64,000 nt of DNA, from the IMG/VR virus record IMGVR_UViG_3300008107_010192, positions 11,507-75,506 of that record; one strand, given 5' to 3'. Positions 8,479 through 59,045 of the stretch are shown here, piece by piece. The notes beneath the pieces were generated by a model. That model was not told the origin of the DNA and made no database searches. It was given only the letters and a program-made list of their open reading frames with translations. A program made the position numbers and the translations under genes. The stretch is from a virus (lineage: Duplodnaviria; Heunggongvirae; Uroviricota; Caudoviricetes). Each line of letters starts with the position of its first letter. The stretch's first letter is position 1.

Positions 8479-8642
8479 AAATATCCACAGAATTTAAGAA
8501 TGTTTTAACTTAATCAGTTCTACAAGTTTTGACAATATAGTGAAGGTTTTCTGTTTTTTATCCTCGCTGATCGATGAAGCTTGTCTTAATTTAAGATCAA
8601 CAGTATTAATTGACTTATATTTTGTTGGTTTTATCATGATCT

Positions 8643-24497: not shown

Positions 24498-24498
24498 G

Positions 24499-25152
24499 TT
24501 AAATTATTTTGGCGCTAGGCGCTATTTTATTGAATTCGTTGATCGAATGGCTAGAGTATTCTGGATCTTCAAATATAATTCCATGATTTCCGTTCCCACT
24601 TTTATCGAATGTTTTAAATTTTGAATTTCTTTCAAAATCAAAAAACGAGTACAGCTTTTTTGATTTCTCGTCAAAGGAATCGACGATTTCATCGAAAACT
24701 GCAATTTTATAAATATCCCCTTTGAACCAGCATTCATAAGATCCACTGTATGGATTTATAGATCCTATAAAAATATTCTTGTCCGAATAAGATTCAATTG
24801 GACCGGTTTCTTTTTCACCTTTTAAAATTCCATCGATGTATATTTTAACAGAATCTGAAACTGTCACCATGACCTCCATTCTTTTATGTATATCATCAAC
24901 AGGTATCCAAATATCGTTATATTGATAGGGTTTAGTGTACCAAGAGAATTTAACACCATTTGGTTTCTGTAAAAATATTCCCATATGGTATCCTATCCTT
25001 CCTACAATCAACGACTCATCCTCTGCAAACTCAGAGAGTTGAAAATCCCCATAAAGAGAAAAATTCCCCTCCAGATTTTCAAAATTCTTTGTGTTCGTAT
25101 TATTTTTAGAATTGTTTGGGATGTAATATGCTTTCTTTTCGAATCTCATCAA
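24499..25152 (-). CDS. LamG/concanavalin-like domain protein (tentative)
   Basis: MVTVSDSVKIYIDGILKGE...IFIGSINPYSGSYECWFKGDIYKIAVFDE resembles the LamG_3/pentraxin-type beta-sandwich. Confidence 0.35.
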   Translation of the reverse strand: MMRFEKKAYYIPNNSKNNTNTKNFENLEGNFSLYGDFQLSEFAEDESLIVGRIGYHMGIFLQKPNGVKFSWYTKPYQYNDIWIPVDDIHKRMEVMVTVSDSVKIYIDGILKGEKETGPIESYSDKNIFIGSINPYSGSYECWFKGDIYKIAVFDEIVDSFDEKSKKLYSFFDFERNSKFKTFDKSGNGNHGIIFEDPEYSSHSINEFNKIAPSAKII

Positions 25153-26531
25153 ATTATTTTTTTATAAAATTCCTCAAATTCTGGAAAAACCTTCAAAAAA
25201 TTGGTGCCTCTTCTTTTATCGTGATTGTCTACAAAAATTCGGAAATCCCTCCTGTTCTGTAATAAGGTCTCTTCAGGTTCTTCCGTTACCATCCAATCAT
25301 GAATTCTATTTAACTTATTGATTTCGATGTCGGTATATCCAAATCCATCAAGACCAACTCTTATTTGTTCGTAGAAGTCCATTAGCTGAGCTTGCTCTTT
25401 TACTACTGCAGACCATTCCTTATCTAATATTTTCACTGTCTGGTGTGGAGGCCACCTTAAATAGGACGAGTCTAACATAATAGAGGAGCCATAGTATCTG
25501 TGAGGGTTGTGATATTCTTCCTTAAGCTTTATCACATTTTCTATTAGCTTTTTATAATTAGGAACGGAAAGTGCGTTATATGTGGACATTATTATTACGG
25601 TCAGAGGCTCAATTTCCTTCAATAGAAAATTAACTCTATCCCACCATTGGTTGAAGACCAAACCATGTCTAATGTATTCAGCTTGTTCTCCCCAGGTATC
25701 TGCACTGGTAAATAGTATCACCTCGTTTACCCTGTTCTCGTCTATCATTCTTTTTAATTTTTCTACCATTAGATTAAAAAGCTTATCTGGTGCTCCTAAA
25801 TTCGTATTGAGAGAAAAATTTAAATTTCTGTTTGGGTTTTTTTCATCCAGGATATAATCAAAAACCTTAAAAGTGTCTTTAGACAGAAGAGGTTCCCCTC
25901 CTGTTATTCTAAAAGTATGAAGATCTCTGTATAAATCAGGCCACCATTTCCAGAAAGCCTCAACGTATGGGTTCTCCTGATTATGCGGTCTTGGGATCAT
26001 GTTCAGATCCTTCAAATATTCTAAATTGTTAAATCTAAAGCTGGTAGGATATGGTCCATGCTGCTCTATTTCTTGAACCCATTGGGAAGAGAACGACGGT
26101 CCACAATACGAGCATTTAAAATTACAGTGATTACTAAAAGCTACCTCAACATACTTAGGATTGTAATTTTCTTTCCACCCTAAATCTTTTATTTCATTAA
26201 AATATGGGGCAGACCAGGGTTCAGAAGATTTATAAATTCTATCGGAAAATGCATTTGATGTATCTTCTATATTCCAGCAATAATCGCATTCATCTGGTCT
26301 TTTACCATGAAGCATTTTTCTTCTCTGCTGCTTTTTATAAACTGTATTATGTAGAGCAGATGGGTTTTTTTCTAACTCTGATAGTGGGATATGATGCGTG
26401 CCTGGATGGTGACACGAATGTGTTTGTCCCATTTGTAAATGAAGTGTTACTTGAGTCCATTTTGCTAAACAAAAGCCACATCCAACATCGTTTAATTTAT
26501 TTCTAGTTTTGTCGAAAAATTCGTTTAGCAT
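25149..26531 (-). CDS. radical SAM enzyme with N-terminal Cys/His module (paralog)
   Basis: GCGFCLAKW...HSCHHPGTHHIP...ECDYCWNIED, SNHCNFKCSYC, FRITGGEPLL; closest paralog of 22938. Confidence 0.6.
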   Translation of the reverse strand: MLNEFFDKTRNKLNDVGCGFCLAKWTQVTLHLQMGQTHSCHHPGTHHIPLSELEKNPSALHNTVYKKQQRRKMLHGKRPDECDYCWNIEDTSNAFSDRIYKSSEPWSAPYFNEIKDLGWKENYNPKYVEVAFSNHCNFKCSYCGPSFSSQWVQEIEQHGPYPTSFRFNNLEYLKDLNMIPRPHNQENPYVEAFWKWWPDLYRDLHTFRITGGEPLLSKDTFKVFDYILDEKNPNRNLNFSLNTNLGAPDKLFNLMVEKLKRMIDENRVNEVILFTSADTWGEQAEYIRHGLVFNQWWDRVNFLLKEIEPLTVIIMSTYNALSVPNYKKLIENVIKLKEEYHNPHRYYGSSIMLDSSYLRWPPHQTVKILDKEWSAVVKEQAQLMDFYEQIRVGLDGFGYTDIEINKLNRIHDWMVTEEPEETLLQNRRDFRIFVDNHDKRRGTNFLKVFPEFEEFYKKII

Positions 26532-27838
26532 TATAGTAATCTTTTTTTAATTATCGGATTGAGACTCTCCAAACAAATTAGATCGTTTGGTAAATTTCTG
26601 TGTTTTGAATTATTTGCAATCATTAAATCGTGTCTTTCTTTATGATTTACCCATGGATTATCTCCAAATAATCTTATATGTTCATTTATACTCGATATAA
26701 ATATCTTCGATTCAAAGTCGTCGTTATCTAAAATAAACTCTGGAAGATGATACGAATTAACAAACGGAACAATGTAATCATAATTTCGCCTGAGAATTGA
26801 TTCAAAGCTATTTTTTATATTCGCTCCGTCAAGTAATATACATCCATTCTTGACGTAGAATATTATATTCTTTTTACTATCCTTTAAAATATTTAAAATT
26901 ATTTGGGATTCTAAATCTTCCGATGATGTGTCCAAGAAAACATATTCATATTCAAAATGATCAGTAATCATGCTTCTGAGCGTCTCCTTGCTGTTTTTTT
27001 CGATCACAAAATATCTAAGATTTTTAAATTTATTTTTATAAAAGTTTAGGGTAGTTTCCAAAACCCCTCCATAATTTTCTTCAGTTCCATCTACCGAAAC
27101 AAAAGCACAGACCTCAGTAGAGATGCACGGTATGTCTTCATATGGTGGATAATGATTGTCTCTAAAATTTACTAGCTGTTTATAAAGAGAATTTGATATG
27201 GTTGAAGGAAATTCGCAGTTTGATAACGCAAGGCCAAAAACAGCTCCCTCTCCTCTTAAATCATCATCAGCCTCCTTCGCTACCTTTTTTCTAAGCATCG
27301 AATAAAATTCATAGGTTTCAAACAATTTGTCTATCTTTTCTTCGTCAATACCCTCGAAATTAAAATACATTAAATCTTCCCATGGAGTAACTGTATTTCT
27401 AAATTCAACATTATTTTTTATCAGCTCATCTTTAAATTTTCCAAGTTTTGGATTCGTTTCTAATAAGGCTTTGAAATGTATGCTTGTAAATCTGTTGTAT
27501 GAAAATCCTGGATTAAAATTCTTAGAAATAATATCATTTATGAATTCTTCAGAATTTATCAATATCAGATCAGAATCCATATAAAGTATTTTATTATACC
27601 CTCTTTTTCTTACCTGGTTAATGAATATAAATTTGCTATGAAAATCAAAGGTTGTGGAAAAATCGTGCTTTATTGTTTCAACCCCTTCCATGTCTTTGAA
27701 TTCTGACACATTATCAGTGTAAACAAATATTTTAAAAGATCCACTATCAGTGAAATTCTTTATTAAAAATTTGCAGCAGGTATAATAATACTCAGTATTA
27801 GAAGCAATTGTCGCTATTGCTATTTTATTTTCCATCAT
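26531..27838 (-). CDS. hypothetical protein (possible glycosyltransferase-like)
   Basis: 435-aa ORF in the gene string; no confident motif. N-terminal KIAIATIASNTEYYYTCCKF. Confidence 0.3.
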   Translation of the reverse strand: MMENKIAIATIASNTEYYYTCCKFLIKNFTDSGSFKIFVYTDNVSEFKDMEGVETIKHDFSTTFDFHSKFIFINQVRKRGYNKILYMDSDLILINSEEFINDIISKNFNPGFSYNRFTSIHFKALLETNPKLGKFKDELIKNNVEFRNTVTPWEDLMYFNFEGIDEEKIDKLFETYEFYSMLRKKVAKEADDDLRGEGAVFGLALSNCEFPSTISNSLYKQLVNFRDNHYPPYEDIPCISTEVCAFVSVDGTEENYGGVLETTLNFYKNKFKNLRYFVIEKNSKETLRSMITDHFEYEYVFLDTSSEDLESQIILNILKDSKKNIIFYVKNGCILLDGANIKNSFESILRRNYDYIVPFVNSYHLPEFILDNDDFESKIFISSINEHIRLFGDNPWVNHKERHDLMIANNSKHRNLPNDLICLESLNPIIKKRLL

Positions 27839-29281
27839 TTATGCTTTGCAATTAATCAGAAGGGTATTGTTGAATACCTCTTTAGTAGAGACTAACTCGT
27901 ACTTCATACTGTTGAATCCCTCACTTTTATAGTTTATACATTTCCTTTGCATTTCGGTTACGAACCTTTTTTCATTTCTTGCTGTTGTTTCCCCCTTTGC
28001 CCACTTATTATTTACTAGCCCTTCGTCAATGTGTGGTAAACACTCGAAAGATCCTTCTCTCCTATAAGGAATTGGCATGTCGCTAACCTCGATGGAATCT
28101 TCAACGATTTCTAAATTATAAGCCTTAGCTTTAATTCCACTCATTACGTCTTCGATTTCTCCATTTTCTATCAAATCAAATTTAAAATGCAGAACTGGCT
28201 TATGTTTTAAATCGTGAAATTTAGTAACATCTCCTGGAATTTTTACTGCCTTATCAAAAATCATTAATTCTGCAATTTCACCTCTAAAAAATAATGGATT
28301 TTCCTCGTCGCCGTTATATCCCACGATAGATTTTTCTTTATCCCTATACTGAAATAAATCATTATTTATTATTGTAGATTTATTTTCTTTGATTCCTTTT
28401 TCGTTAGATCTTGCTAGTTCGTCATTTAGAAAAAAATTAAAGTGACCACTTGAAGAATCATAAGATGTTGTTACCCAGGACCAAACACCATCATCCCTCT
28501 TGATCCAATTATAGATCTGGGATGATGAAAAATCTGAAATCATGCTAGTAACAGCTCTGGAGTTGTTAAAAGATATGCAGTACGGACTATATGATTGCTT
28601 TCGGAAAACCGGAAATTCTATGAATTTTTTGTCATCCGTTCCTATTAGCCAATCTTTATATTTTTCAGGTTGTTGTTCTGCTTTAAATAGAGCACATACC
28701 GTATGATCTGATCCCAGTATTTTGTTTATGGATTTTATCCATGGGATTTCAACATATGAGTTGTTTCCATTAAATCTTGAAAATTTTCTTTTTTTATATT
28801 TTTTATAAATCCTTTTTTCAACATATCCTTCGAAATAACATCGATAAAAAAGGTCGTCATCTTCCATACCCCAATCCCAATAATCATTAGAATATCCGTT
28901 AGTTTTTATAACTTGATCCTTAGTAAATAGAATTACCCCACCGAAGTATTGTTCATAATTTAGTTTGAAATCGTACTTCGAAAGTTTTGTTGCTATATGA
29001 ATTGGATATTTTTCCGGATATGAATAGTCACAATCATCGGAGAATGGCACCATATCAACGTCATGCCATGCAATATAATCACATCCATCATCGAAGGCAA
29101 ACTTGGCTGCTATGTTTTTCATTAGTCCCCTATTAAACAGCTTATTATCCACCTGATGGGCCACATAAAATTTATGATCTATTCCACGATTTTTTAGATA
29201 CTCCCCCAGGTCTTCAGTTAGCTTCTGTAAGTGATCGAATCTATTTCTGTAAGGTATGCAAATTCCCAGTTTATGACTCAT
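27839..29281 (-). CDS. GT7-family (beta-1,4-galactosyltransferase-like) glycosyltransferase with C-terminal LamG-like extension
   Basis: LGICIPYRNRFDHL (PFRxRxxHL), FNRGLMKNIAAKFAF (FNRxxLxNxGF), YIAWHDVDMVPF (HDVDxxP); C-terminal FFRGEIAELMIFDKAV resembles a LamG end. Confidence 0.55.
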   Translation of the reverse strand: MSHKLGICIPYRNRFDHLQKLTEDLGEYLKNRGIDHKFYVAHQVDNKLFNRGLMKNIAAKFAFDDGCDYIAWHDVDMVPFSDDCDYSYPEKYPIHIATKLSKYDFKLNYEQYFGGVILFTKDQVIKTNGYSNDYWDWGMEDDDLFYRCYFEGYVEKRIYKKYKKRKFSRFNGNNSYVEIPWIKSINKILGSDHTVCALFKAEQQPEKYKDWLIGTDDKKFIEFPVFRKQSYSPYCISFNNSRAVTSMISDFSSSQIYNWIKRDDGVWSWVTTSYDSSSGHFNFFLNDELARSNEKGIKENKSTIINNDLFQYRDKEKSIVGYNGDEENPLFFRGEIAELMIFDKAVKIPGDVTKFHDLKHKPVLHFKFDLIENGEIEDVMSGIKAKAYNLEIVEDSIEVSDMPIPYRREGSFECLPHIDEGLVNNKWAKGETTARNEKRFVTEMQRKCINYKSEGFNSMKYELVSTKEVFNNTLLINCKA

Positions 29282-30684
29282 ATTCCTACGTTAATTTCTG
29301 TTATATTTCCCTCTCTTTTTCTTCCGTGATCTGTGTACTTTAGATCCGATAATCCGTCTCCAAATAAAAGATTGCTGTTATTTCTTACCTCGTTATAGAA
29401 TCTTAATTGATTCCATCTAGTTGCTTTATCCTTCCATCTATTTTCGAAGAAACCATTTTGCTCATGTTTCATGGATTTAAAGATAGAATCCCTTCTGATC
29501 GGAAGGTCTATTTTTTTAAACCAAGGACCTTCCATATCAACAATTTCACATTTGAAAATACTAGCATCGTTTCCGTTTCCTGAAAGATCTACTAACTTAT
29601 AATTTTCTATGTGCTCTGCATCATAGTGACAAAGAATGGATCCGGATTTTTTATATTCCGAAAAGTCGTTTGTTGCTGAAACAGATTTAACTTCATTTTC
29701 ACTTAAAATTCCTTCTAAGACTACCAAAGAATCTATGTACCCCTTGAAAAAATTAGGATCTCCATTTCTTTTAGGATTTCCTGCACCGATAAAGAAATAC
29801 TTTTCGTCTGAATAATCCTTTAATTCTCCCTCCCAATTTGTTTTTCCTATATGTTCTCCGTCTTGATAGAAATTTATTTCTCTCAACGATTGATTTAATG
29901 TGATACAAATATTTGTTTGATAATTAGTAGTTATTTCTGTGTTTATGTATGATGCTTTTTCTTCGGAGTTGAATGTAACAAAATTGTATCTCTTGAATGA
30001 ATTATAGGAAATTGCAGTGTCATACCCCGGAATGCTAAAAACCGTATAAACGTCAAGATCCTTCGTTGAATCATAAACCAATTCATCGGGGAAAAAAGAT
30101 GCAAATAATGTTAGATCCTTGTCTATGCAAAAATTATTTTTTGCTCTCACAAAAGAATCCTGTCCGTTAAATTTTAGTGATTTATGGAAATTTCTTGTTT
30201 TTTTGATGTAATAAGGCTCTGTGCCTATGCTCTTGTTTTTGCATCTTAGGAAAAGGTCATCATCTTCAAATCCCCATCCCCAATACTTATTTGAATATCC
30301 GTTTATCTTTTTGAAATCTTTAATCGGAAACATAGTGACCCCGCCGAAGTATTCGTCGAATGGCTTTGATCTTTCCCCCGAGTCCTCGTCCTCTATTAGA
30401 GTTGCAAGATGAACTGGATGATCACAGTAAGAATAATCAACATCCAATGGCAGCAAATCAACATCATGAAAAACCACATAATCACATCTTAAGTTTCTGG
30501 CACACTTAAATCCTATATTTAATAGCATCCCTCGATTAAATTGCTTACCGTCGTCTTGATTTACGATGATAATTTCATGTGGTATTTTTTCCTCGTTTAG
30601 ATATTTTACTATCTCCTTGAGAAAAAAATAAAGATGTTCCCCTCTGTGGCGGAAAGGAACTATGACTCCTAGTTTTTTATCCAT
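29278..30684 (-). CDS. GT7-family (beta-1,4-galactosyltransferase-like) glycosyltransferase with C-terminal extension (paralog)
   Basis: LGVIVPFRHRGEHL, QFNRGMLLNIGFKCA, YVVFHDVDLLPL: textbook beta4GalT motifs. Confidence 0.6.
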   Translation of the reverse strand: MDKKLGVIVPFRHRGEHLYFFLKEIVKYLNEEKIPHEIIIVNQDDGKQFNRGMLLNIGFKCARNLRCDYVVFHDVDLLPLDVDYSYCDHPVHLATLIEDEDSGERSKPFDEYFGGVTMFPIKDFKKINGYSNKYWGWGFEDDDLFLRCKNKSIGTEPYYIKKTRNFHKSLKFNGQDSFVRAKNNFCIDKDLTLFASFFPDELVYDSTKDLDVYTVFSIPGYDTAISYNSFKRYNFVTFNSEEKASYINTEITTNYQTNICITLNQSLREINFYQDGEHIGKTNWEGELKDYSDEKYFFIGAGNPKRNGDPNFFKGYIDSLVVLEGILSENEVKSVSATNDFSEYKKSGSILCHYDAEHIENYKLVDLSGNGNDASIFKCEIVDMEGPWFKKIDLPIRRDSIFKSMKHEQNGFFENRWKDKATRWNQLRFYNEVRNNSNLLFGDGLSDLKYTDHGRKREGNITEINVGI

Positions 30685-32569: not shown

Positions 32570-33358
32570 ATGGAAAAGAAGCAAAAAATATTGACTATAG
32601 GGGACATTCACGGGAGGGATTACTGGAAATTCATTACCCATGGTAGTAGTTACGAATTTGAGCAGTGGGTAACCATGGTGAATGCTGGGGCTAATCCCAT
32701 GGACGATTTGTTTAAAGAGGATTATCCTTATTTTTCCGCAGACAAGATAGTTTTTGTTGGTGATTACGTTGACAGTTTCACAATTAGTAATGTTGAGATC
32801 AAGAAAAATCTTGAGGATATCATTTTCTTTAAAAAGACACTACCAAATAAGGTAGTGCTTCTCTGGGGAAATCACGATGTTCAGTATTTTATTCCCAATC
32901 AAATCTGTAGCGGATATCGTCCAGAGGCAAGATGGGATCTACAGATTCTTTTTGAGAGCAATAAAGATCTTTTCCAGATGGCATATCACGAGGGTGATTA
33001 TCTTTGGACTCATGCTGGTTTATTAAAGCCAGTATTAAGTGATCTTTTAAAACATCATCCGGATCTAAAGGAACTTGGTAATGAGGCAGCTATTTTAAAC
33101 GAGGCATTTAAAATGGAACTCCCCCAAATTTTTCAGGTGGACGGTGCCAGTGGGGGATGGAGCATGTACGGGGGACCGCTCTGGGTTAGGCCAAATCAGC
33201 TTCAAGAATATGGAGTAGACCTGCATCAGATAGTAGGACACACCCCGGTTTCAGAATTGAAGAATTTAAAAAATAAAAGAGACTATAACATCTGGCTCAC
33301 AGATTATTTAGAATATAGCTTGGGCGAAGGACTTGATCCCTTAACTTTAGAAATATGA
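32570..33358 (+). CDS. calcineurin-like metallophosphoesterase (Ser/Thr phosphatase / ApaH-like)
   Basis: ILTIGDIHGR (GDxHG), VFVGDYVDS (GDxxDRG-like), LLWGNHD (GNH[DE]), later WTHAG. Confidence 0.7.
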   Translation: MEKKQKILTIGDIHGRDYWKFITHGSSYEFEQWVTMVNAGANPMDDLFKEDYPYFSADKIVFVGDYVDSFTISNVEIKKNLEDIIFFKKTLPNKVVLLWGNHDVQYFIPNQICSGYRPEARWDLQILFESNKDLFQMAYHEGDYLWTHAGLLKPVLSDLLKHHPDLKELGNEAAILNEAFKMELPQIFQVDGASGGWSMYGGPLWVRPNQLQEYGVDLHQIVGHTPVSELKNLKNKRDYNIWLTDYLEYSLGEGLDPLTLEI

Positions 33359-33639
33359 TATCGAAAAAAACGAAAGAAAGGGCAAAACAAATTATGAATG
33401 GAACATATGTACCTCCAGAGCCAGAAAAGATAGCGGTTACTTTTGAGGTCACTGAAAAACAATATAAAAAATACAAAAGGTGGAGAAATGCTAAGAAGAA
33501 AAAAGAAGGGGAGCTTTACGTCGGAGCAATCGGAGGAGCATACACTTTTTGTTTTACTGCAACAGGAATAGGTGAAATAGTAACTGTGAAAGCAGCAGAC
33601 GGAGATGAGTTAGATTTAACAGATTATAATACTTGGTAA
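33355..33639 (+). CDS. small hypothetical protein
   Basis: 94-aa ORF, overlaps the upstream stop (ATGA), lysine-rich. Confidence 0.35.
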   Translation: MISKKTKERAKQIMNGTYVPPEPEKIAVTFEVTEKQYKKYKRWRNAKKKKEGELYVGAIGGAYTFCFTATGIGEIVTVKAADGDELDLTDYNTW

Positions 33640-33640
33640 T

Positions 33641-34246
33641 ATGAAAGTGATATTTTTAGACAATGACGGAGTAATTTGCCTTTCCAATAATTGGGGATCA
33701 CGACACAAGAAGCAAAAAAAATGGGGTGGTAGGAAACTATCTATGACTACTCGTGAAATGCCCCTTGAATATAGATTTGATAATTTTGATAAAAAAGCAA
33801 TTAAAATCTTAAATGAAATTCTAGAACAAACTGGAGCTGAAATTGTAGTGAGCTCCGATTGGAGATTGTATGCGGATTTAGAGGAGTTGGGGAAATACTA
33901 CACATCCCAGGGTATTATCAAAAATCCTATAGGAGTAACTGAAATATTTCACCATAAAAATTGGGTAGAAGAAGGTAGAATACCCCCAGATTTTGATTGG
34001 TACAGAATCGAAGATAGGGAGCAAGAAAGGCACTTCGAAATTCTGGAATGGCTAAAGAAGAATCCGGAGGTTACTCAATGGGTAGCTGTGGATGATTTAC
34101 ACATGGGGATTCACGTCGAAGCAAGTTCTTATGGAGCATTCGATAGAGATTGGGGATTGAAAAATTTTGTATGGACTCCCAGAGCCTGGGAAGGAATTAA
34201 ACAGTCAGGAATCAAAAAAAAGATTTTAAAATTTTTAAACAACTAA
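33641..34246 (+). CDS. HAD-like hydrolase (tentative)
   Basis: MKVIFLDNDGVIC resembles HAD motif I (DxDG[TV]); rest is unassigned. Confidence 0.35.
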   Translation: MKVIFLDNDGVICLSNNWGSRHKKQKKWGGRKLSMTTREMPLEYRFDNFDKKAIKILNEILEQTGAEIVVSSDWRLYADLEELGKYYTSQGIIKNPIGVTEIFHHKNWVEEGRIPPDFDWYRIEDREQERHFEILEWLKKNPEVTQWVAVDDLHMGIHVEASSYGAFDRDWGLKNFVWTPRAWEGIKQSGIKKKILKFLNN

Positions 34247-35717: not shown

Positions 35718-36788
35718 ATGAGTATCGCCTTAACTTATGATGACATCCAATTAGTTCCTGCTTACTCTGAAGTTGTTTCCAGGAGTACAATCAATCTTAA
35801 CACTTTGGTGACACGAAGATACGGATTAATTAGACCCCTGGTGGCTTCTCCGATGGATACGGTGTGTGAACTTGACATGGCCTATAGAATTTTTCTATTC
35901 GGAGGAGTTGGATGTATCCATCGTTTCATGCCTATTGAAAATCAATCCCGGATGATTGAGATGCTAAGATATAAAATATATGGAGACGGATTTGGTGGTC
36001 CTTTCGAGGATTGGGGAATCATGTATGACGATTGGCATTCTGAGATCAAGCAGATACCTATTATGGCAGCTGTTGGAGCTAATGGCGATTATTTGGATAG
36101 AGCAAAAAGTCTAATAAAGAATGGAGCAAATATCATCCTCATAGACGTAGCTCATGGACATCATAAAAATGTCAAAGATGCAATCGAATCTATAAAATCT
36201 ATTAGTCCCGAAATTGATGTGATAGCAGGAAATATTGCAACACCAGAAGCTGCTCAAGATTTAGAATCGTGGGGAGCGGACGGATTAAGAGTTGGTATTG
36301 GAGGTGGATCCCTTTGTACAACTAGAGTTAAAACTGGATTTGGTATTCCTAACGTAACTTGTATAGAAGAGATATCAAAAATTGCCACAGTTCCTGTTAT
36401 GGCAGATGGAGGTATTCGAACTAGTGGAGATATTGCTAAGGCTTTAGCACTTGGGGCAAGCAGTGTGATGCTAGGATCATTGCTTGCAGGGACAGAAGAA
36501 TCCCCTGGACAGATAGTTGAAAAATCAACGGGTCTATATAAAAGATACAGGGGTGCAGCATCATTAGAAACCAAAACGGTTCACGGACAAGCACAGAGAA
36601 ATGTAGAGGGGGAATCTACAATTATTCCATATAAAGGAGGAGCTAAATTTGTTTTAGAGGGATTACTTGACGGGGTTAAATCTGCTCTTTCATATGCAGG
36701 TGCGGTTTGTTTGAAAACATATCACCCAAAATATGTTCAAATTACCAACGCTGGTATGAACGAAGCAAAGCCGCATCTGATAAATTAA
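35718..36788 (+). CDS. guaC: GMP reductase / IMP dehydrogenase family (CBS-less, GuaC-like)
   Basis: LTYDDIQLVP (TFDDVLLVP-like), GIGGGSLCTTRVKTGFGIP (catalytic Cys loop GIGPGSICTTR), ADGGIRTSGDIAKALALGA (DGGI..GD..KA.A.GA); 356 aa without CBS insert. Confidence 0.7.
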   Translation: MSIALTYDDIQLVPAYSEVVSRSTINLNTLVTRRYGLIRPLVASPMDTVCELDMAYRIFLFGGVGCIHRFMPIENQSRMIEMLRYKIYGDGFGGPFEDWGIMYDDWHSEIKQIPIMAAVGANGDYLDRAKSLIKNGANIILIDVAHGHHKNVKDAIESIKSISPEIDVIAGNIATPEAAQDLESWGADGLRVGIGGGSLCTTRVKTGFGIPNVTCIEEISKIATVPVMADGGIRTSGDIAKALALGASSVMLGSLLAGTEESPGQIVEKSTGLYKRYRGAASLETKTVHGQAQRNVEGESTIIPYKGGAKFVLEGLLDGVKSALSYAGAVCLKTYHPKYVQITNAGMNEAKPHLIN

Positions 36789-36838
36789 TTCGGTTCGCAC
36801 GAAACAAACTTCTTAAAAGATATATAAATTTCATCATT

Positions 36839-37220
36839 GGGGGTGTATTTGGCACTTGACAGACATTGGTAGTTCTTTGAGATGATGCAGGCCGAGTTAG
36901 TATTGGAAACTCGTTAATCACCTATGCAAACAATAAACGACGTAGAATTATCTACAATGACCTTCGAAGACGCTATGTCTTTCGTTGGTGCTGATTACGC
37001 AATAGCTGCCTAATCCCTCCCGCACACATCGTGGGGCTTAAAATAGAATGTGAACCCAGGTGGAATATGACTGAACCCGAAATCGAGTCATCTGAATTTG
37101 GTAGTTTAATCAGCCAACTATAAACTACATATTTTGTTTGTAAAGAAAAACAAGCTAAGCCTGTGAATGAGTTTCTTTTAACAGATGGACTGGACACCGG
37201 TTCGATTCCGGTCACCTCCA
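36839..37220 (+). ncRNA. ssrA: tmRNA (SsrA-like transfer-messenger RNA)
   Basis: 5' GGGGGTG pairs with 3' CACCTCC, giving a 7-bp acceptor with a G3:U70 wobble (Ala identity). T-arm ACCGG-TTCGATT-CCGGT precedes it; discriminator A then CA. Internal reading frame ends ...GADYAIAA-TAA (a YALAA-type degradation tag). About 380 nt. Confidence 0.65.
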
Positions 37221-37236
37221 CAAAAATTAATTTAAT

Positions 37237-37869
37237 ATGCAAGACAGAAAAGAATTCCCGTCGTTATTGAAATCGATGGGATTGACCAACAAGGGAGTTG
37301 AGGTTGGATCTTTTAAGGGTGACTTTGCTAAAGAAATTCTTGAGCAGTGGCCAGGAATATTATATTTAGTGGATCCTTGGCGAGAAATGAAGGAAGAGGA
37401 GTATGACGATATTTCAAACATGAAACACCAGGGAAAAGTTTATGAAAAAACTTTTGAAAACCTAACAGGATTTGAAGAGCGAGCATTAATGATGAGAATG
37501 ACATCAGATCAGGCTGCTGAATTATTTCCCGACAGGTCTTTGGATTTTGTTTATATTGACGCAAACCACACTTATGAGCATGTGAAAAATGATATCATGC
37601 TTTGGTATCCCAAAGTTAAAATAGGAGGAATTCTTGCAGGACATGATTTTTTAAAACTAGAATGCTTCAACAAAGAATCTTACGCTAATGGACAAAAGAA
37701 CCACCCGATTTGGATGTGGTTAGATGGGGATTACAATAATAGATTCTATGCTGGAATGTTTGGAGTGAATCCAGCAGTGGAAGAATTTTTGGAATATAAT
37801 GGTTACGATCTTCATGTCACTAATGAGTTCACAGGAACTTGGTGGATAGTCAAAAAAAGCAATCTATGA
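37237..37869 (+). CDS. class I SAM-dependent methyltransferase-like (TylF/MycF-type)
   Basis: VEVGSFKGDFAKEI (motif I region), LYLVDPW, FVYIDANHTYEHVKNDI; paralogous to 31733..32461. Confidence 0.45.
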   Translation: MQDRKEFPSLLKSMGLTNKGVEVGSFKGDFAKEILEQWPGILYLVDPWREMKEEEYDDISNMKHQGKVYEKTFENLTGFEERALMMRMTSDQAAELFPDRSLDFVYIDANHTYEHVKNDIMLWYPKVKIGGILAGHDFLKLECFNKESYANGQKNHPIWMWLDGDYNNRFYAGMFGVNPAVEEFLEYNGYDLHVTNEFTGTWWIVKKSNL

Positions 37870-38807
37870 AAACCGCCTTTCTAAATCTCAGAAATCACAG
37901 GAAGGCTTATCTTATTTGTTCAGTTGGTCAAAGGTATATTGATATGGTTGAAGAACTGGTCCGCCAGTTAGACAAATATTCATCATTTCCTGTTTTTTTA
38001 TACTATTCGGATGGCCAGGTTAATTTTGATTTTCCCAATCTAATAAAACAGAAGTTTGAAATTGATTCCTCGATAAAGTATGAAATCGAAGGAATAAATC
38101 CAGAGAGTGTTAAAACACTAATGCTTACCACAGTTAAACCCAGGGCTTGCAAGCTTTTATTGGAAAACTATGAGGTAGATGAATTTGTCTTTCTTGATTC
38201 CGATGTTTTGGTTACACCTGCTATAGATTCTGTTTTTCTAAACTATGGCGATTCTATTTCTAACTTTCCTATTTTTCTAAGATATTCATGGGACTGGGTA
38301 ACCACCAACGGAAAGCAGCATGTTGCAGATATTATCTTAGAGAGAATTGGAATTTCTAGGGCTCCAACAGTAACCTCACTTTGTACCTGTCTTTTTATTG
38401 CAAACAGAAATTGTAAATCTTTCTTATCTGATTGGGAAAAATATTGTTCAGATCCTGAAATAATTAAGTTTGCTTTAAGTCCGGAGGGATACGGAGGATT
38501 TACCGATGAATCTGTTGCTAACGCAGTCGCTTGGCTTTATAGATGTAATATTTCCATTCCAACTAATCTTTGTTGGGCTTGGAAATATGAACCAGTGAAA
38601 TATGTCTTTGATTTTTATGACGGGATAATTTCAGATCTAGAAAGACACACTTCACAGCCGACCCATTATAAATTGAGTGGAGAAAATGAAGTACCTTTTG
38701 GTCTTTCTGTTATTCCCGAAAGAAAAAATAATTTTTTAGGATTTCATTTCATCAAAGATCTAGAGACAATTAAAAAAGTTGCAGAAGAAATAGAAAAAAG
38801 GTTCTAA
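37866..38807 (+). CDS. GT-A fold glycosyltransferase-like (DxD)
   Basis: CKLLLENYEVDEFVFLDSDVLV fits the nucleotide-diphospho-sugar transferase W/K....YD.v.f.DsD core. Start set to Met10, giving an ATGA overlap with the upstream stop. Confidence 0.4.
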   Translation: MKTAFLNLRNHRKAYLICSVGQRYIDMVEELVRQLDKYSSFPVFLYYSDGQVNFDFPNLIKQKFEIDSSIKYEIEGINPESVKTLMLTTVKPRACKLLLENYEVDEFVFLDSDVLVTPAIDSVFLNYGDSISNFPIFLRYSWDWVTTNGKQHVADIILERIGISRAPTVTSLCTCLFIANRNCKSFLSDWEKYCSDPEIIKFALSPEGYGGFTDESVANAVAWLYRCNISIPTNLCWAWKYEPVKYVFDFYDGIISDLERHTSQPTHYKLSGENEVPFGLSVIPERKNNFLGFHFIKDLETIKKVAEEIEKRF

Positions 38808-38884: not shown

Positions 38885-38959
38885 TGCGGGGTAGAGCAGT
38901 GGTAGCTCGCTGGGCTCATAACCCAGAAGTCGTGGGTTCGAATCCCACCCCCGCTACCA
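38885..38959 (+). tRNA. tRNA-Met, initiator type (anticodon CAT)
   Basis: Cloverleaf TGCGGGG-TA-GAGC..GCTC-G-CTGGG-CTCATAA-CCCAG-AAGTC-GTGGG-TTCGAAT-CCCAC-CCCCGCT-A-CCA: 1x72 mismatch and three G:C pairs in the anticodon stem as in bacterial tRNA-fMet; CCA encoded. Confidence 0.8.
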
Positions 38960-46183: not shown

Positions 46184-49100
46184 ATGGCAAATTATAGAAT
46201 TTTAGGACAAGAAACTGTTAACAATTCGGTAAGTCCGGGACCTACCCTTGTAACACTTTATACGGTTCCTCAAAATGCTTCCATTCTAATCAATGCAATA
46301 ACCGGATATAATGAGGGATTTAATAGTGGATATCTTACCGTTGCAGTAAAAAGGAACGGGGACGAGGACTATTCTCCAGATCAAATTGTTATAAATACTC
46401 CCTTAGCACCCGGTGCTTCAATACAAATTTCTCCTCAATTTTCTCCTGTTGGTTTAACTGCCGGCGACGTAATACTTTTAGTTGGTAATTATTCTCCTGC
46501 CCCTACAACAGTAGCGGTAACCTTATTCGGTGAAGACGGGGCTTCTAGCGGTGGATCCGGCAATGCAGGAACATCCGGAACTTCAGGAAACAGTGGGGGC
46601 TCAAGTACTTCAGGAAGTAATGGTACTAGCGGGACTTCGGGAACTAATGGATCTACAGGAACTGGTGGTACTAGTGGTACCTCTGGAATGAACGGATCTA
46701 TCGGAACTAATGGTACGAGTGGAACCTCAGGTGAAACCTTCGGAACTAGTGGAACGTCAGGGGCAGCTGGTGCTCCTGGAGCAGCGGGATCTTCTGGAAC
46801 ATCTGGGGTTTCCGGAGCATCTGGTTCTTCTGGAACCTCTGGGGTTTCCGGAGCATCCGGTTCTTCCGGAACATCGGGAAATTCAGGTTCTTCTGGAACA
46901 TCTGGGATTTCCGGGGCATCTGGTTCTTCCGGAACATCAGGAAATTCGGGATCCTCTGGTACATCAGGAAATTCGGGAACCTCTGGTACTTCGGGAGAAT
47001 CTGGTTCTGCTGGTACATCCGGATCATCTGGAACATCAGGAAACTCCGGGTCATCCGGTACATCAGGAAACTCCGGGTCCTCCGGTACATCAGGAAATTC
47101 GGGAACCTCTGGTACTTCTGGGGAATCTGGCTCTTCTGGAACATCAGGATTCTCTGGGTCCTCCGGAACATCAGGAAACTCCGGGTCATCCGGTACATCA
47201 GGATCCTCTGGAGAACCCGGTTCTGCCGGAACATCGGGATCCTCAGGTACATCTGGTACATCAGGAAACTCCGGGTCATCCGGTACATCAGGGTCATCCG
47301 GTACATCAGGGTCCTCTGGTACATCTGGTGCTGATGGTACATCCGGTTCTTCCGGAACCTCGGGAAACCCTGGATCATCAGGGACCTCTGGAACATCAGG
47401 AAACTCTGGATCATCGGGGACATCCGGATCCGCTGGAACTTCTGGTTTAAGCGGAATATCTGCAGGACAGATTTATTATTTTAACCAATCTCAGTCTTCT
47501 GACATTTCTCCATATAAAGTCCTTAGTGTTTACCCATCAGGAGCTGCTGAACAAACAGTTCCTATGGTATTAACGGGCGGGCAATTGAATGTTCTGGTAA
47601 GTCAATTCCTGACCCCCGAATTGGGATTTGCTGTAATTCCACCAGGCACTCAGAGATTTCATCTGCATTTTTTAAAACAACAGTTTAATGATGACATAGA
47701 TGGCTATGTTACCATAGAACTTGCAAATTCGTCAGGTGTAGGATATGGCACTATTATTCAATCAAACAAAGCTTTAATTGGATGGGTGAGTGTTTCTCAA
47801 TCTTATGAGCTGTTGGTTGATATTGTTTTACCTTCAGTATACATAAACACCACAGACAGAATGATTGTCAAGGTTTACGTTGACAATAATGAAGCAACCG
47901 TCAGAAATTTAACTTGGTACACAGAGGGGGCTCAAAACTATTCATATGTAATCACATCGGTTGGAGCAATTGTAGCAAGCTCTGGAACGTCAGGGAGTTC
48001 TGGAACTAGTGGATCAAGCGGAACTTCGGGATCCGGGGGTTCATCAGGAACTAGCGGATCTAGTGGATCGGAGGGAACTTCAGGTAGCTCTGGTACTTCC
48101 GGCAGTTCTGGAACCTCTGGAGAAGATGGAACTTCAGGTAGCTCTGGTACTTCCGGCAGTTCTGGAACCTCTGGAGAAGATGGAACTTCGGGATCTGGGG
48201 GTTCATCAGGAACTAGCGGATCTAGTGGATCGGAGGGAACTTCAGGTAGCTCTGGTACTTCGGGAACCTCTGGAGAAGATGGAACTTCAGGTAGCTCTGG
48301 TACTTCGGGAACCTCTGGAGAAGATGGAACTAGTGGATCTTCAGGTACATCAGGAACCTCGGGGGTGTGCGAGTGTCCACACAGCTACACTATCACGGCT
48401 CCAACGGATATCACGTGTTACTCTTTAACAAATGACGGAGATCCCGACAACGTAAATAGTACAAACTATCTCGATTGTAACGGGAATCCTGCGGTCATTT
48501 ACAATAAAATTTTTCTCACACCAGCTACTTATTTCTGTGCTCAGACCGGATCTGTTACAACTGATTCGGGGCTCACTGTAATATCAGTACCTGATGATCC
48601 TGGATCTTGCGACGGATGTTGCGATGGATATGCTTATTCTTATACCGACGAAACAGATACTATCATAAGTGGAATCATATATGACGGAGAATCTCTAACT
48701 TTCTGTGCGATCCCAGGATCTGTAGTTTGGTCCCATACAATAGTAGACAATGGGCATTGTGTAGGAAGTTCAGGTACTTCCGGCAGTTCTGGTTCGAATG
48801 GTACGTCAGGTAGCTCTGGTACTTCCGGCAGTTCTGGTTCGAATGGTACGTCAGGTAGCTCTGGTACTTCCGGCAGTTCTGGATCTTCTGGGACATCAGG
48901 AACTGATGGTTCCTCCGGTAGTACAGGTACTTCTGGTTCTTCCGGCAGTTCTGGATCTTCTGGGACATCAGGAACTGATGGTTCCTCCGGTAGTACAGGT
49001 ACTTCTGGATCCTCAGGGTCATCTGGAACTTCCGGAACTGATGGATCTTCAGGTACATCAGGTAACTCTGGTTCTTCTGGAACCTCAGGATCAGCAGGTA

Positions 49101-52098: not shown

Positions 52099-52130
52099 AT
52101 TTAGGGTTCTTTGACATTGTGGAAAATAAC

Positions 52131-53846: not shown

Positions 53847-53886
53847 GTCCCTTAAATCACGCAACTTCTTAAAATTTAATAATATT

Positions 53887-59015: not shown

Positions 59016-59045
59016 CAGATGGTTCTTTGACATATTGGAAAACTT

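What the first reader, a model, noticed from the sequence alone, without database searches (positions are those of the whole stretch)
36839..37220. tmRNA (ssrA-like) gene in a phage-like, tRNA-rich region
The sequence folds into a tRNA-Ala-like acceptor/T-arm: 5' GGGGGTG with G3:U70, T-arm ACCGG-TTCGATT-CCGGT and discriminator A. It encloses a reading frame ending ...GADYAIAA-stop, a close variant of the canonical YALAA proteolysis tag. Phage-borne tmRNAs exist but are rare, mostly in jumbo phages with large tRNA sets. The alternative is that this is a host ssrA and the surrounding DNA is an island integrated next to it, since the ssrA 3' end is a classic integration site.
Basis: partly seen in the sequence, partly recalled or inferred. 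Interest (0 to 1): 0.7.

Follow-up and report, generated by a model that had tools for sequence, protein, structure and literature searches.

The report
Phage tmRNA with long conserved tag
This is a real, intact ribosome-rescue RNA (tmRNA) carried by a large uncultivated phage and not by a bacterium, and it belongs to a phage-borne family found on at least 40 contigs that all encode the same unusually long, acidic 24-26-residue tag.

Summary
ARAGORN and Rfam RF00023 (79.5 bits, E 3e-29, full length) both call a tmRNA at 36839-37221/37223 (+). It has G3·U70, discriminator A, a T-arm, PK1, an 11-nt linker with U-5/A-4, and a 24-codon tag, DVELSTMTFEDAMSFVGADYAIAA.

It is phage-borne. The 64 kb hold 21 tRNAs, a tail-fibre-like gene, lysin domains and sugar/radical-SAM genes. 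No integrase, att repeat, SmpB or housekeeping gene was found. UvsX-like and RNase H-like genes lie just outside the window.

Going beyond the finding, a codon-degenerate scan for the tag core found 38 more viral contigs (up to 271 kb), all of them tmRNAs. That gives 29 distinct full-length sequences. G3·U70 is invariant, and the acceptor, T-stem, H2 and PK1 covary.

The tag is the best-conserved module (88-95 % identity, against 59-78 % for the other modules). Several codons outside the searched stretch vary only synonymously. Two 96 %-identical phages differ by a complete swap of the PK2-4 core.

Phage tmRNAs are already known, including the long acidic tag of Bxz1. This is therefore a new member, and a sizeable new family, of a known kind. 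What the conserved long tag does is unknown.

The parts
36839..37220 (+). Mature tmRNA, nt 1-382, ending at discriminator A. The following CAA means that CCA is not encoded.
   Evidence: ARAGORN. Rfam RF00023, 79.5 bits, E 3e-29. Sequence.
36839..36845 (+). Acceptor stem, 5' strand GGGGGUG (G3 of the G3·U70 alanine identity pair)
   Evidence: All 7 pairs form. Across 29 family members G3·U70 is kept in 29 of 29, and pair 5 covaries G-C (16) with A-U (13).
37213..37220 (+). Acceptor stem, 3' strand CACCUCC, plus discriminator A
   Evidence: Discriminator A is present in 29 of 29.
37196..37212 (+). T-arm: ACCGG / loop UUCGAUU / CCGGU
   Evidence: The T-stem is always Watson-Crick paired in the family, with 2-4 pair types at each position.
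36860..36892 (+). Helix 2, 5' strand (H2a nt 22-30, H2d nt 49-54)
   Evidence: Rfam alignment. Pair list. H2d is 100 % paired with 2 covarying pairs. H2a is weaker.
37159..37192 (+). Helix 2, 3' strand (H2d nt 321-326, H2a nt 344-354)
36893..36927 (+). Pseudoknot 1: S1 nt 55-60 with 70-75; S2 nt 62-68 with 83-89 (one U·U)
   Evidence: An H-type PK1 forms in 29 of 29 family members, with 8 different fully complementary S1 versions. The single-sequence energy is not better than shuffles.
36928..36938 (+). 11-nt single-stranded linker AAACAAUAAAC, with U at -5 and A at -4 before the resume codon
   Evidence: Sequence. The length and the U85/A86 rule match the E. coli experiments (PMC2481249). The linker is kept across the family.
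36939..37013 (+). Tag template: resume codon GAC, 24 codons (DVELSTMTFEDAMSFVGADYAIAA), stop UAA
   Evidence: ARAGORN. This is the most conserved module in the family. Outside the searched codons, seven positions vary only synonymously.
36942..36955 (+). Hairpin GUAGA-AUUA-UCUAC (nt 104-117) formed by tag codons 2-6. Codons 2-5 are invariant at the nucleotide level in every family member.
   Evidence: MFE fold. Codons 2-5 show no variation even at sites the search pattern left free.
37014..37155 (+). Variable core (PK2-PK4 region, nt 176-317). Model: PK2 180-185/193-198 plus 187-191/210-214; PK3 229-234/248-253 plus 239-243/259-263; hairpin 264-270/283-289; PK4 stem 298-303/312-317.
   Evidence: This is a model only. 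The energetics are marginal, with 12 of 200 shuffles as good. Only the 298-317 stem has covariation support. The region is unalignable between scaffolds and is swapped wholesale between L171 and L172.
35718..36788 (+). Upstream gene: IMPDH/GMP-reductase family protein (356 aa), 50 nt before the tmRNA
   Evidence: Pfam PF00478, E 1.6e-97. No promoter-like site lies between it and the tmRNA.
37237..38807 (+). Downstream genes: Methyltransf_24 (37237-37869) and a 322-aa ORF of unknown family (37839-38807). The pair is conserved next to the tmRNA and is fused in some relatives.
38885..38959 (+). tRNA-Met (CAU), same strand and same gene string as the tmRNA
32570..34246 (+). Metallophosphoesterase plus HAD_SAK_2 (RNA-repair-type) genes at the head of the same plus-strand gene string. 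In type-B relatives the tmRNA lies directly after the metallophosphoesterase.

Best explanation
The locus is a functional, phage-encoded, one-piece tmRNA (ssrA) of a large, T4-like-replicating, tRNA-rich phage whose host is probably a member of Bacteroidota.

Steps shown by the sequence data:
- The RNA has every tRNA-like and mRNA-like element of a tmRNA.
- It is embedded in a phage gene string with no detectable promoter or terminator of its own.
- It is kept under purifying selection in a family found on at least 40 phage contigs.

Inferred mechanism:
- It is transcribed with its neighbours (GMP-reductase-like gene, tmRNA, methyltransferase, ORF322, tRNA-Met).
- It is cut out like a tRNA by RNase P and 3' trimming, and then receives CCA, which is not encoded.
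- It is charged with alanine by the host AlaRS through G3·U70.
- With SmpB it enters ribosomes stalled on broken or non-stop mRNAs. No SmpB was found in the DNA at hand, so the host protein is assumed.
- Translation resumes at GAC, four nucleotides after the conserved A of the linker. The tag (A)DVELSTMTFEDAMSFVGADYAIAA is appended and the ribosome is released at UAA.
- The C-terminal YA(I/V/L)AA is a canonical ClpXP-type degron, so tagged fragments are probably degraded.

Proposed benefit to the phage: extra rescue capacity while host mRNA is being destroyed, or while RNA-targeting defences cut mRNAs and tRNAs. This fits the neighbouring tRNAs and RNA-repair-type genes.

The 17 or so residues ahead of the degron are conserved at the protein level across the family. 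They probably serve a specific recognition step, such as an adaptor or a protease choice. That partner is unknown.
For: Identity as a tmRNA:
- ARAGORN and Rfam at 79.5 bits, E 3e-29.
- All acceptor, T-arm, H2d and PK1 pairs form.
- The 11-nt linker with U-5/A-4 matches the experimentally defined frame-setting rule.

Phage origin:
- Flanking gene content.
- The identical locus on at least 22 metagenome contigs.
- UvsX-like, RNase H-like and TROVE genes just outside the window.
- No att repeat.
- No close cellular tmRNA among the 3'-end scan hits.

Selection:
- Between the window and L171 the tmRNA is 97.4 % identical, while the flanking genes are 69-85 % identical.
- Among 29 distinct family members G3·U70 and discriminator A are invariant. 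Acceptor pair 5, all five T-stem pairs, two H2d pairs and PK1-S1 covary. A smaller alignment shows the same.

Tag:
- There are 25 distinct templates. Outside the searched codons, seven positions change only synonymously, and amino-acid changes are limited and mostly conservative.
- The tag is the most conserved module.

Precedent:
- Phage tmRNAs occur in about 2.3 % of phages and in huge phages.
- The Bxz1 tag is also long and acidic.

Host hints:
- The TLD and 5' module are closest to Chitinophagaceae tmRNAs, with the same linker, the same tag end GCUGCCUAAUC and an identical 31-nt 3' end.
- The best SPFH and UvsX hits are phages of Bacteroidota.
- Shine-Dalgarno use is at background.
Against: - No expression or activity data exist.
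- No SmpB gene was found in the window, its flanks or any related locus.
- No promoter or terminator is recognisable.
- The PK2-PK4 fold is only a model. Rfam posterior probabilities are low there, and its energy is matched by 12 of 200 shuffles.
- The whole-RNA MFE z-score is only -1.4.
- The high conservation between the window and L171 could partly reflect recent recombination and not selection, because cassette exchange demonstrably happens in this gene.
- Conservation of tag codons 2-13 across the 38 scan hits is by construction of the search.
- The host assignment rests on indirect hints. A TTGACA-containing motif in front of tRNA clusters is not a Bacteroidota-type promoter.
Confidence: 0.85

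Rival explanations
1. It is a working tmRNA, but its main purpose is not generic rescue plus degradation. The conserved long acidic tag redirects trans-translation products to a phage-chosen fate. That fate could be a phage-encoded adaptor or protease, sequestration, or signalling of the host's translational state.
For: The tag is more conserved than the tRNA-like domain, which is unusual. Protein-level selection acts on residues upstream of the degron. Type-B relatives keep a similar N-terminal tag part (VE[LM]S..T.[DE]) but end in ...AELV or ...ELELA and not in a canonical ..AA degron. Unrelated large phages (Bxz1, LR756508) also have 25-36-residue tags with net charge -5 to -7. The closest cellular relatives have 9-residue neutral tags.
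Against: The window-type tags all keep a textbook YA(V/I/L)AA or LAVAA C-terminus, which suffices for degradation in model systems. No candidate adaptor or protease was identified. The similarity between type A and type B tags is only suggestive (shuffle p 0.011 and 0.059), and there is none to Bxz1. Codons 2-5 are conserved at the RNA level, so part of the tag conservation is not about the peptide.
Confidence: 0.2
2. It is a passenger: a host ssrA captured by imprecise excision or recombination that is carried along without function, or is decaying.
For: The TLD, linker, tag end and 31-nt 3' end resemble Chitinophagaceae tmRNAs, so an ultimate host origin is plausible. The PK2-4 core shows no similarity to them beyond shuffled controls.
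Against: The gene is intact in every functional element. It is far better conserved than the neighbouring protein genes. It shows compensatory substitutions across 29 distinct copies, with invariant identity elements. It also shows synonymous-only variation in tag codons. Decay would not produce these patterns.
Confidence: 0.04
3. It is the bacterial host's own ssrA and the surrounding phage-like DNA is an island or prophage integrated at its 3' end.
For: ssrA is a classic integration site. The 3' 31 nt are identical to those of some Bacteroidota tmRNAs.
Against: Phage-type genes lie on both sides and continue beyond the window edges. There is no integrase, no housekeeping gene and no repeat of the 3' end in 64 kb. 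The same RNA family sits at different places in viral contigs of up to 271 kb. The tag was not seen in any cellular tmRNA recovered by the 3'-end scans.
Confidence: 0.02

Closest known systems
Bacterial one-piece tmRNA (ssrA; Rfam RF00023), e.g. E. coli and Chitinophagaceae (Flavisolibacter) tmRNAs
   Same: The acceptor with G3·U70, discriminator A, T-arm, helix 2, PK1, the 11-nt linker with U-5/A-4, the tag frame ending YA(x)AA plus stop, and an overall size of about 380 nt are all shared. With Flavisolibacter the 5' module is 72 % identical and the 3' module 78 %. The 3'-terminal 31 nt and the tag end GCUGCCUAAUC are identical, and CCA is likewise not encoded.
   Different: It is encoded by a phage. 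The tag has 24 codons against 9-10 and a net charge of -5 against 0 to -2. The PK2-4 core has no detectable similarity (87 of 178, the same as shuffled). In this family the tag template, and not the tRNA-like domain, is the most conserved module.
Mycobacteriophage Bxz1 (cluster C) tmRNA
   Same: It is a phage-encoded one-piece tmRNA in a large myovirus with about 30 tRNAs. It has a long acidic tag (ATDTDATVTDAEIEAFFAEEAAALV, 25 residues, net charge -7). The same genome has a UvsX-like recombinase and an 'RNA-binding protein' gene. It is listed as a known phage ssrA in PMC4131195.
   Different: There is no significant tag or RNA sequence similarity. Bxz1 is 435 nt long and its tag ends ...AALV, whereas the window tag ends in the canonical ...YAIAA. 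The host phylum is different.
tmRNAs of huge phages (Al-Shayeb et al. 2020) and the two-piece tmRNAs of marine pelagimyophages and phage Melnitz (Buchholz et al. 2022)
   Same: They are carried by large aquatic phages together with tRNAs and other translation genes. The proposed roles are to maintain hijacked translation or to tag host proteins. The huge phage LR756508 has a tmRNA about 4 kb from its GMP-reductase homologue.
   Different: The window RNA is one-piece, not permuted, and no riboswitch was called. The LR756508 tmRNA is unrelated in sequence and in acceptor stem. The VELSTMTFEDAM tag is not encoded in any of 50,697 reference phage records.
Type-B tmRNAs of sister phages (L163, L165, L167, L168, L175; found here)
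   Same: They share the same neighbourhood (metallophosphoesterase ... tmRNA ... methyltransferase-ORF322), the same resume context AAUAAnn|GAC, and a long acidic tag with a similar start, D(NNT)VE(M/L)S.YT.D.
   Different: The acceptor is GGGCCUG, the size is 433-483 nt, and the tag has 27 codons ending ...AELV or ...ELELA. The tag similarity to the window type is only suggestive (p 0.011 and 0.059).

Membership tests
tmRNA (ssrA, RF00023) | Covariance-model score above the curated threshold over the full model | tested here: met
   79.5 bits against a gathering score of 47, E 3.3e-29, model positions 1-374. ARAGORN concurs.
tmRNA (ssrA, RF00023) | tRNA-Ala-like acceptor stem with G3·U70 and discriminator A | tested here: met
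   All 7 pairs form, with G3·U379 and A382. These elements are invariant in 29 of 29 family members, and pair 5 covaries.
tmRNA (ssrA, RF00023) | T-arm with a GGUUCGAnUCC-type loop and no anticodon arm | tested here: met
   ACCGG/UUCGAUU/CCGGU. All five T-stem pairs covary and are always Watson-Crick paired.
tmRNA (ssrA, RF00023) | Long helix 2 joining the tRNA-like domain to the pseudoknot ring | tested here: met
   H2d is 6 of 6 paired in the window and 100 % paired across the family, with 2 covarying pairs. H2a forms in the window with a mismatch and a bulge, and is less well supported (86.7 % paired).
tmRNA (ssrA, RF00023) | Pseudoknot 1 immediately upstream of the tag template | tested here: met
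   An H-type PK1 is present in the window and in 29 of 29 relatives, with 8 complementary stem-1 versions. Single-sequence energetics alone are not significant.
tmRNA (ssrA, RF00023) | Resume codon set by a single-stranded upstream sequence with a conserved A at -4 (E. coli A86) | tested here: met
   The linker AAACAAUAAAC|GAC is 11 nt long with U-5 and A-4. The rule comes from PMC2481249. It is conserved in the family.
tmRNA (ssrA, RF00023) | Short internal reading frame that ends in a hydrophobic or Ala-rich degron followed by a stop codon | tested here: met
   ...GADYAIAA-UAA. All 25 distinct templates end (Y/L)A(V/I/L)AA plus stop. The length of 24 codons is at the long end of the range.
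tmRNA (ssrA, RF00023) | Pseudoknots PK2-PK4 downstream of the tag | tested here: inconclusive
   Three H-type pseudoknots can be drawn, but Rfam posterior probabilities are low and 12 of 200 shuffles do as well. Only the 298-317 stem covaries. The region is replaceable in nature and in E. coli (PMC2481249).
tmRNA (ssrA, RF00023) | Works with SmpB, is charged by AlaRS and mediates trans-translation | not testable with these tools
   No SmpB gene was found in any DNA held. Activity needs experiments.
Phage-encoded tmRNA (as opposed to host ssrA with an integrated element) | Phage genes on both sides, no integrase or att duplication, and recurrence on viral contigs | tested here: met
TLD-only mini-tmRNA (mycobacteriophage DS6A type) | Little more than the tRNA-like domain, with no tag template | tested here: not met
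   The window RNA is full length with a tag. Two other viral contigs (L001, L002) that share its 3' 30 nt do carry such a 139-nt molecule.
Two-piece (permuted) tmRNA | Circularly permuted gene order, with the acceptor 3' half upstream of the 5' half | tested here: not met
   Both programs align it as a standard one-piece tmRNA from position 1 to 374.

The most novel reading that the evidence does not exclude
A clade of large, apparently aquatic phages has evolved its own tmRNA lineage in which the selected unit is the tag peptide, not the scaffold. The tag is a 24-27-residue strongly acidic sequence kept constant while the H2/PK1 sequences and the T-stem diverge and the PK2-4 core is exchanged. 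Under this reading the phage uses trans-translation to attach a phage-specific label to truncated, mostly host, proteins. A dedicated adaptor, protease or sensor then reads that label. The phage would be reprogramming host protein quality control and not merely supplementing it. Long acidic tags in unrelated large phages (Bxz1, LR756508, the type-B relatives) would then be convergent solutions to the same need.
Probability: 0.2. Interest if true: 0.65.

Novelty: new member of a known kind. Interest (0 to 1): 0.42.

Why it matters
Phage-encoded tmRNAs are known but uncommon (about 2 % of sequenced phages), and I found no experimental test of their function in the papers consulted. This locus is a clean, intact example. 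It also opens onto a family of 40 loci and 29 distinct full-length sequences on viral contigs of up to 271 kb, and none of those sequences matches any reference phage.

The family gives natural evidence for three points:
- The tRNA-like domain, H2 and PK1 are maintained by compensatory change.
- The PK2-4 core is freely exchangeable, even between 96 %-identical genomes. This mirrors what mutagenesis showed in E. coli.
- The long acidic tag is the most constrained part.

That last point turns a vague question, why phages carry tmRNAs, into a testable one: what recognises the conserved 17 residues ahead of the degron?

There is also a practical point. ARAGORN missed or mis-framed several relatives, so phage tmRNA censuses based on it alone are probably undercounts.

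Tried and rejected
- Megablast and blastn of the locus and of the tmRNA against 50,697 reference phages gave no match. tblastn of both tag peptides also gave no match.
- An exact tag-end 27-mer was absent from IMG/VR. ORF322 relatives were also absent from IMG/VR.
- I first treated the 66 IMG/VR loci that share the GMP-reductase gene as relatives lacking the tmRNA. One search showed that only that one gene is shared, so the inference was dropped. Two of those contigs later proved to carry the tmRNA elsewhere.
- An att-site duplicate of the 3' end was not found.
- A sigma-70 promoter or intrinsic terminator at the gene was not found on the plus strand.
- The motif AACTTCTTAAAA lies upstream of the tmRNA and of a tRNA-Met, but it is not significant.
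- A Bacteroidota TAnnTTTG promoter box is not enriched upstream of genes.
- Thermodynamic support for the pseudoknots from the single sequence is weak.
- There is no significant tag similarity to Bxz1 or LR756508.
- Marinamargulisbacteria and UBP8 tmRNAs with long tags and the same T-arm were considered as a source. They were rejected because they are only 59-61 % identical in the 5' module, against 71-74 % for Chitinophagaceae.
- A giant-virus origin was considered because of the collagen, SET and Glyco_transf_7 genes. It was rejected because of the peptidoglycan hydrolases, the S74 fibre chaperone domain, the operon-like packing and the T4-type genes.
- A search for sample metadata in the paper library found nothing.
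Full report
**1. The observation**

- ARAGORN calls a tmRNA at 36839-37221 (+) with the tag DVELSTMTFEDAMSFVGADYAIAA*.
- Rfam RF00023 matches the whole model at 36839-37223 with 79.5 bits (gathering score 47, E 3.3e-29).
- Twenty-one tRNA genes lie in the window, twenty of them at 52-61 kb.
- The antisense ORF 36973-37242 matches no Pfam or PHROG family. Independent gene calls on six metagenome contigs leave the gap empty.

**2. Anatomy** (tmRNA numbering; nt 1 = window 36839)

- The acceptor is 1-7/375-381 with G3·U379. The discriminator is A382, followed by CAA. CCA is therefore not encoded, which is also true of most of the window's tRNAs.
- The T-arm is 358-362/370-374 with loop UUCGAUU.
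- Helix 2 consists of H2a (22-30/344-354, with one mismatch and one bulge) and H2d (49-54/321-326).
- PK1 has stem 1 at 55-60/70-75 and stem 2 at 62-68/83-89 (one U·U).
- An 11-nt linker, AAACAAUAAAC, places U at -5 and A at -4 before the resume codon GAC. E. coli has the same length and the same U85/A86 arrangement, and A86 sets the frame there (PMC2481249).
- Twenty-four sense codons and UAA follow (nt 101-175).
- Downstream I can draw three H-type pseudoknots and a hairpin. Rfam's posterior probabilities are low there, 12 of 200 shuffles give as much pseudoknot energy, and the whole-RNA MFE z-score is only -1.4. The PK2-4 fold is therefore a model, not a result.
- No sigma-70-like promoter or terminator was found on the plus strand. 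The gene lies 50 nt after a GMP-reductase-family gene and 15 nt before a methyltransferase gene. Co-transcription followed by tRNA-like processing is the likely route, but this is inferred.

**3. Phage or host**

- The window is 28-39 % G+C apart from a collagen-repeat gene and the tRNA clusters.
- Its genes are 2OG-Fe(II) oxygenases, a SET-domain protein, a Hint-domain protein, four paralogous radical-SAM enzymes, many glycosyltransferases, an SPFH protein, a metallophosphoesterase and a HAD_SAK_2 RNA-repair-type protein.
- It also has a collagen-repeat protein with a Peptidase_S74 fibre-chaperone domain, CHAP and glucosaminidase lysin domains, and a non-specific endonuclease.
- There is no integrase, SmpB or housekeeping gene, and no second copy of the tmRNA 3' end.
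- The same locus, with an identical tmRNA, occurs on at least 22 metagenome contigs from several samples.
- Contigs that extend beyond the window carry an AAA_5/VWA pair, NT5C, a T4-type RNase H and a RecA-like gene. The best matches of that RecA-like gene are the 735-kb and 462-kb huge phages of Al-Shayeb et al., followed by cyanophage UvsX. On the other side lie a radical-SAM gene and a TROVE (Ro-like) gene.
- One index block holds a contig of 0.2-1 Mb.
- The host-ssrA-plus-island alternative is therefore rejected.

**4. Where the RNA came from**

- Scans for the 3' 22-mer found cellular tmRNAs in Chitinophagaceae (tag GNTQYAMAA), Marinamargulisbacteria, UBP8 and others. None is more than about 68 % identical overall.
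- Chitinophagaceae are closest in the 5' module, at 71-74 % against 59-61 % for the others.
- Against Flavisolibacter the 5' module is 72 % identical and the 3' module 78 %. The last 31 nt are identical, the linker is nearly the same, and the tag frame ends in the same GCUGCCUAAUC. The core is no more similar than shuffled sequence (87 of 178 against 87.8 ± 3.5).
- Three further hints point the same way. The SPFH best hits are crAss-like and Lak phages. The UvsX best hit is a huge phage predicted to infect Bacteroidetes. Shine-Dalgarno use is at background, 8 of 57 genes.
- Together these suggest a Bacteroidota host and an ancient capture of a Bacteroidota-type tmRNA. I hold this at roughly even odds.

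**5. True relatives and the family**

The 66 IMG/VR loci that share the GMP-reductase gene share nothing else with the window, so they say nothing about this locus.

Homologues of the lineage-specific ORF322 led to real relatives.

*Type B.* One group carries a 433-483-nt tmRNA directly after the metallophosphoesterase gene.
- Its acceptor is GGGCCUG, and G3·U is retained.
- The resume context is AAUAACC|GAC.
- The tags have 27 codons: DNNTVEMSTYTVDSLLAELEAPVAELV or DNTTVELSDYTVDSLLAELEGVELELA.
- ARAGORN missed three of these and mis-framed one.

*L171.* This locus has the window's own gene order.
- Its protein genes are 69-85 % identical to the window's at the DNA level, yet its tmRNA is 97.4 % identical, with 10 differences.
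- Two of those differences convert G·U pairs to A-U pairs, and one breaks a modelled PK4 pair.

*L172 and L173.* These are 96 % identical to L171 on both sides. Inside the tmRNA gene, nt ~181-317 are replaced by 196 unrelated nucleotides, and three T-stem pairs carry double changes. The tag template stays 99 % identical.

*The wider scan.* A codon-degenerate scan of IMG/VR for VELSTMTFEDAM returned 38 contigs of 14-271 kb. All of them are tmRNA tag frames that end in (Y/L)A(V/L/I)AA-stop. With the window and L171 this gives 40 loci, 25 distinct tag templates and 29 distinct full-length RNAs of 366-423 nt.

**6. Evidence for function from the family**

- Among the 29 distinct sequences, G3·U70 and discriminator A never change.
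- Acceptor pair 5 is G-C in 16 and A-U in 13.
- Every T-stem position is always Watson-Crick paired, with two to four pair types.
- On the alignment, H2d and the T-arm are 100 % paired, with 2 and 5 covarying pairs. The covariation score is exceeded by 0 of 500 shuffles and by none of the slid controls.
- A smaller alignment with full-length cores gave 94.7 % paired cells against 35-47 % when slid, and nine pairs with double changes. Three of those are in the 298-317 stem.
- PK1 forms in all 29, with eight different complementary versions of stem 1.

**7. The tag**

- Relative to the window, other members are 67-74 % identical in the 5' module, 59-78 % in the core and 67-77 % in the 3' module, but 88-95 % in the tag.
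- Part of this is ascertainment, because I searched for codons 2-13.
- Two observations are free of that bias. In codons 14-24, seven positions vary only synonymously, and amino-acid changes are confined to four positions (S/A, A/V, Y/L, V/L/I). This indicates selection on the peptide. In codons 2-5, GUAGAAUUAUCU never varies even at the five sites the pattern left free. These codons form the hairpin GUAGA-AUUA-UCUAC right after the resume codon, which indicates an RNA-level constraint.
- The first codon varies (D, A, N, G, T).
- The tag has net charge -5 and no basic residue, against 0 and -2 for the two cellular tags compared.
- The type-B tags resemble it at the start, but the similarity is only suggestive (p 0.011 and 0.059).

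**8. Comparison with what is known**

- Phage tmRNAs are documented in cluster-C mycobacteriophages, in Bacillus phage G, and in a TLD-only form in DS6A (PMC4131195). They occur in about 2.3 % of 18,146 phage genomes, many of the aquatic ones being two-piece (PMC9004378), and in huge phages together with SmpB (PMC7162821).
- I verified that Bxz1 encodes a 435-nt tmRNA with the 25-residue acidic tag ATDTDATVTDAEIEAFFAEEAAALV. A long acidic tag is therefore not new in itself.
- The new elements are this particular family, which is absent from reference phages, the demonstration that its tag is the most constrained module, and the natural cassette swap of the PK2-4 core.

**9. Verdict**

This is a genuine, very probably functional, phage-encoded tmRNA. 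It is a new member, and the entry point to a sizeable new family, of a known kind. The rescue mechanism is inferred from complete conservation of the defining elements. The benefit to the phage and the role of the long tag remain hypotheses.

Noticed in passing
L001 4715-4853 (-) and L002 4091-4229 (-) (IMGVR_UViG_3300033388_004813 and IMGVR_UViG_3300033145_001073): This is a 139-nt 'mini-tmRNA': acceptor, T-arm, encoded CCA and a 79-nt insert, sharing the window tmRNA's last 30 nt exactly. Rfam scores it 59.3 bits and ARAGORN calls nothing. It folds well (z = -3.0) and has no convincing tag frame. It resembles the TLD-only molecule of mycobacteriophage DS6A, which has been proposed to titrate SmpB (PMC4131195). 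Only these two contigs have it.
   Followed up: partly
L163 6725-7157, L165 4959-5392, L167 5375-5857, L168 3683-4115, L175 2317-2750 (-): A second tmRNA type occurs in sister phages. It is 433-483 nt long, has acceptor GGGCCUG, and carries 27-codon acidic tags ending ...AELV or ...ELELA, which are not canonical degrons. ARAGORN missed three of the four full-length copies it was run on and mis-set the resume codon in the fourth.
   Followed up: partly
L171 2941-3077 versus L172 85-280: Two phage segments that are 96 % identical on both sides differ by a complete replacement of the tmRNA PK2-4 core (137 nt against 196 unrelated nt). This is a natural module swap inside an RNA gene.
   Followed up: yes
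L157 15752-16198 (LR756508.1, 484-kb uncultured huge phage): This 447-nt tmRNA (Rfam 72 bits) lies about 4 kb upstream of the GMP-reductase homologue. ARAGORN's tag (GRRKPLSW) looks mis-framed. Reading from CUAUAACU|GGC gives a 36-residue tag, GVNNADYESAGFTAEDFAQMDGESLYHGSERKPAAV.
   Followed up: partly
window 52106-52126 and 59022-59042 (+); also downstream of the tmRNA in L184 and L205: The conserved motif GTTCTTTGACATnnTGGAAAA lies immediately in front of tRNA clusters (2 copies against 0.05 expected). One window copy follows a terminator-like hairpin. A close variant sits in front of a tRNA in two related viral contigs. The spacing does not fit a sigma-70 promoter for the tRNA.
   Followed up: partly
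window 32570-34246 (+); L161/L162 15494-17134; L163 1659-3284; L167 284-1909: An RNA-repair and RNA-quality-control flavoured set of genes surrounds the tmRNA in this phage group: a metallophosphoesterase, HAD_SAK_2 ('Swiss army knife' RNA repair), and a TROVE (Ro60-like) protein about 15 kb left of the window. Bxz1 also has an 'RNA-binding protein' gene. The gene-free gap upstream of the TROVE gene (L163 1170-1658) gave no Rfam hit. A Y-RNA-like partner was not searched for further.
   Followed up: no
window 46184-50822 (+): The collagen-like G-X-Y repeat fibre gene (G+C 45-49 %, against about 32 % around it) is split into two overlapping ORFs by a frame change inside the repeat. The second ORF ends in a Peptidase_S74 chaperone domain. 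On a related contig the gene is called as one product of 1570 aa that runs past the end of the fetched locus. The split could be an assembly slip or a genuine frameshift.
   Followed up: partly
window 19540-30684 (-): Four paralogous radical-SAM genes (24-33 % identical) are followed by two paralogous proteins with eukaryote-type Glyco_transf_7 (beta-1,4-galactosyltransferase) N and C domains plus a Laminin_G_3 lectin domain. This is an unusual glycan-modification block for a phage.
   Followed up: no
window 8005-10517 (-): A SET-domain protein (157 aa) lies next to a 624-aa protein whose C-terminus matches Hint, intein-splicing and AXH models.
   Followed up: no
window 37237-38807 (+); P0004, P0007, P0011: The Methyltransf_24 gene and the unknown 322-aa ORF just downstream of the tmRNA are fused into one 513-539-aa protein in sister phages. 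They probably work together. ORF322 has no Pfam or PHROG match and no relative in reference phages.
   Followed up: partly
window 36807-36818 and 53863-53874 (+): The 12-mer AACTTCTTAAAA occurs exactly twice, both times 13-32 nt upstream of an RNA gene (the tmRNA and a tRNA-Met). It is not statistically significant on its own.
   Followed up: yes
L029 69-410 and L050 26-366: Other viral contigs that share only the GMP-reductase gene carry a different, canonical tmRNA (Rfam 128-131 bits, tag GNYNLALAA). tmRNAs have therefore entered this ecological group of phages more than once.
   Followed up: partly
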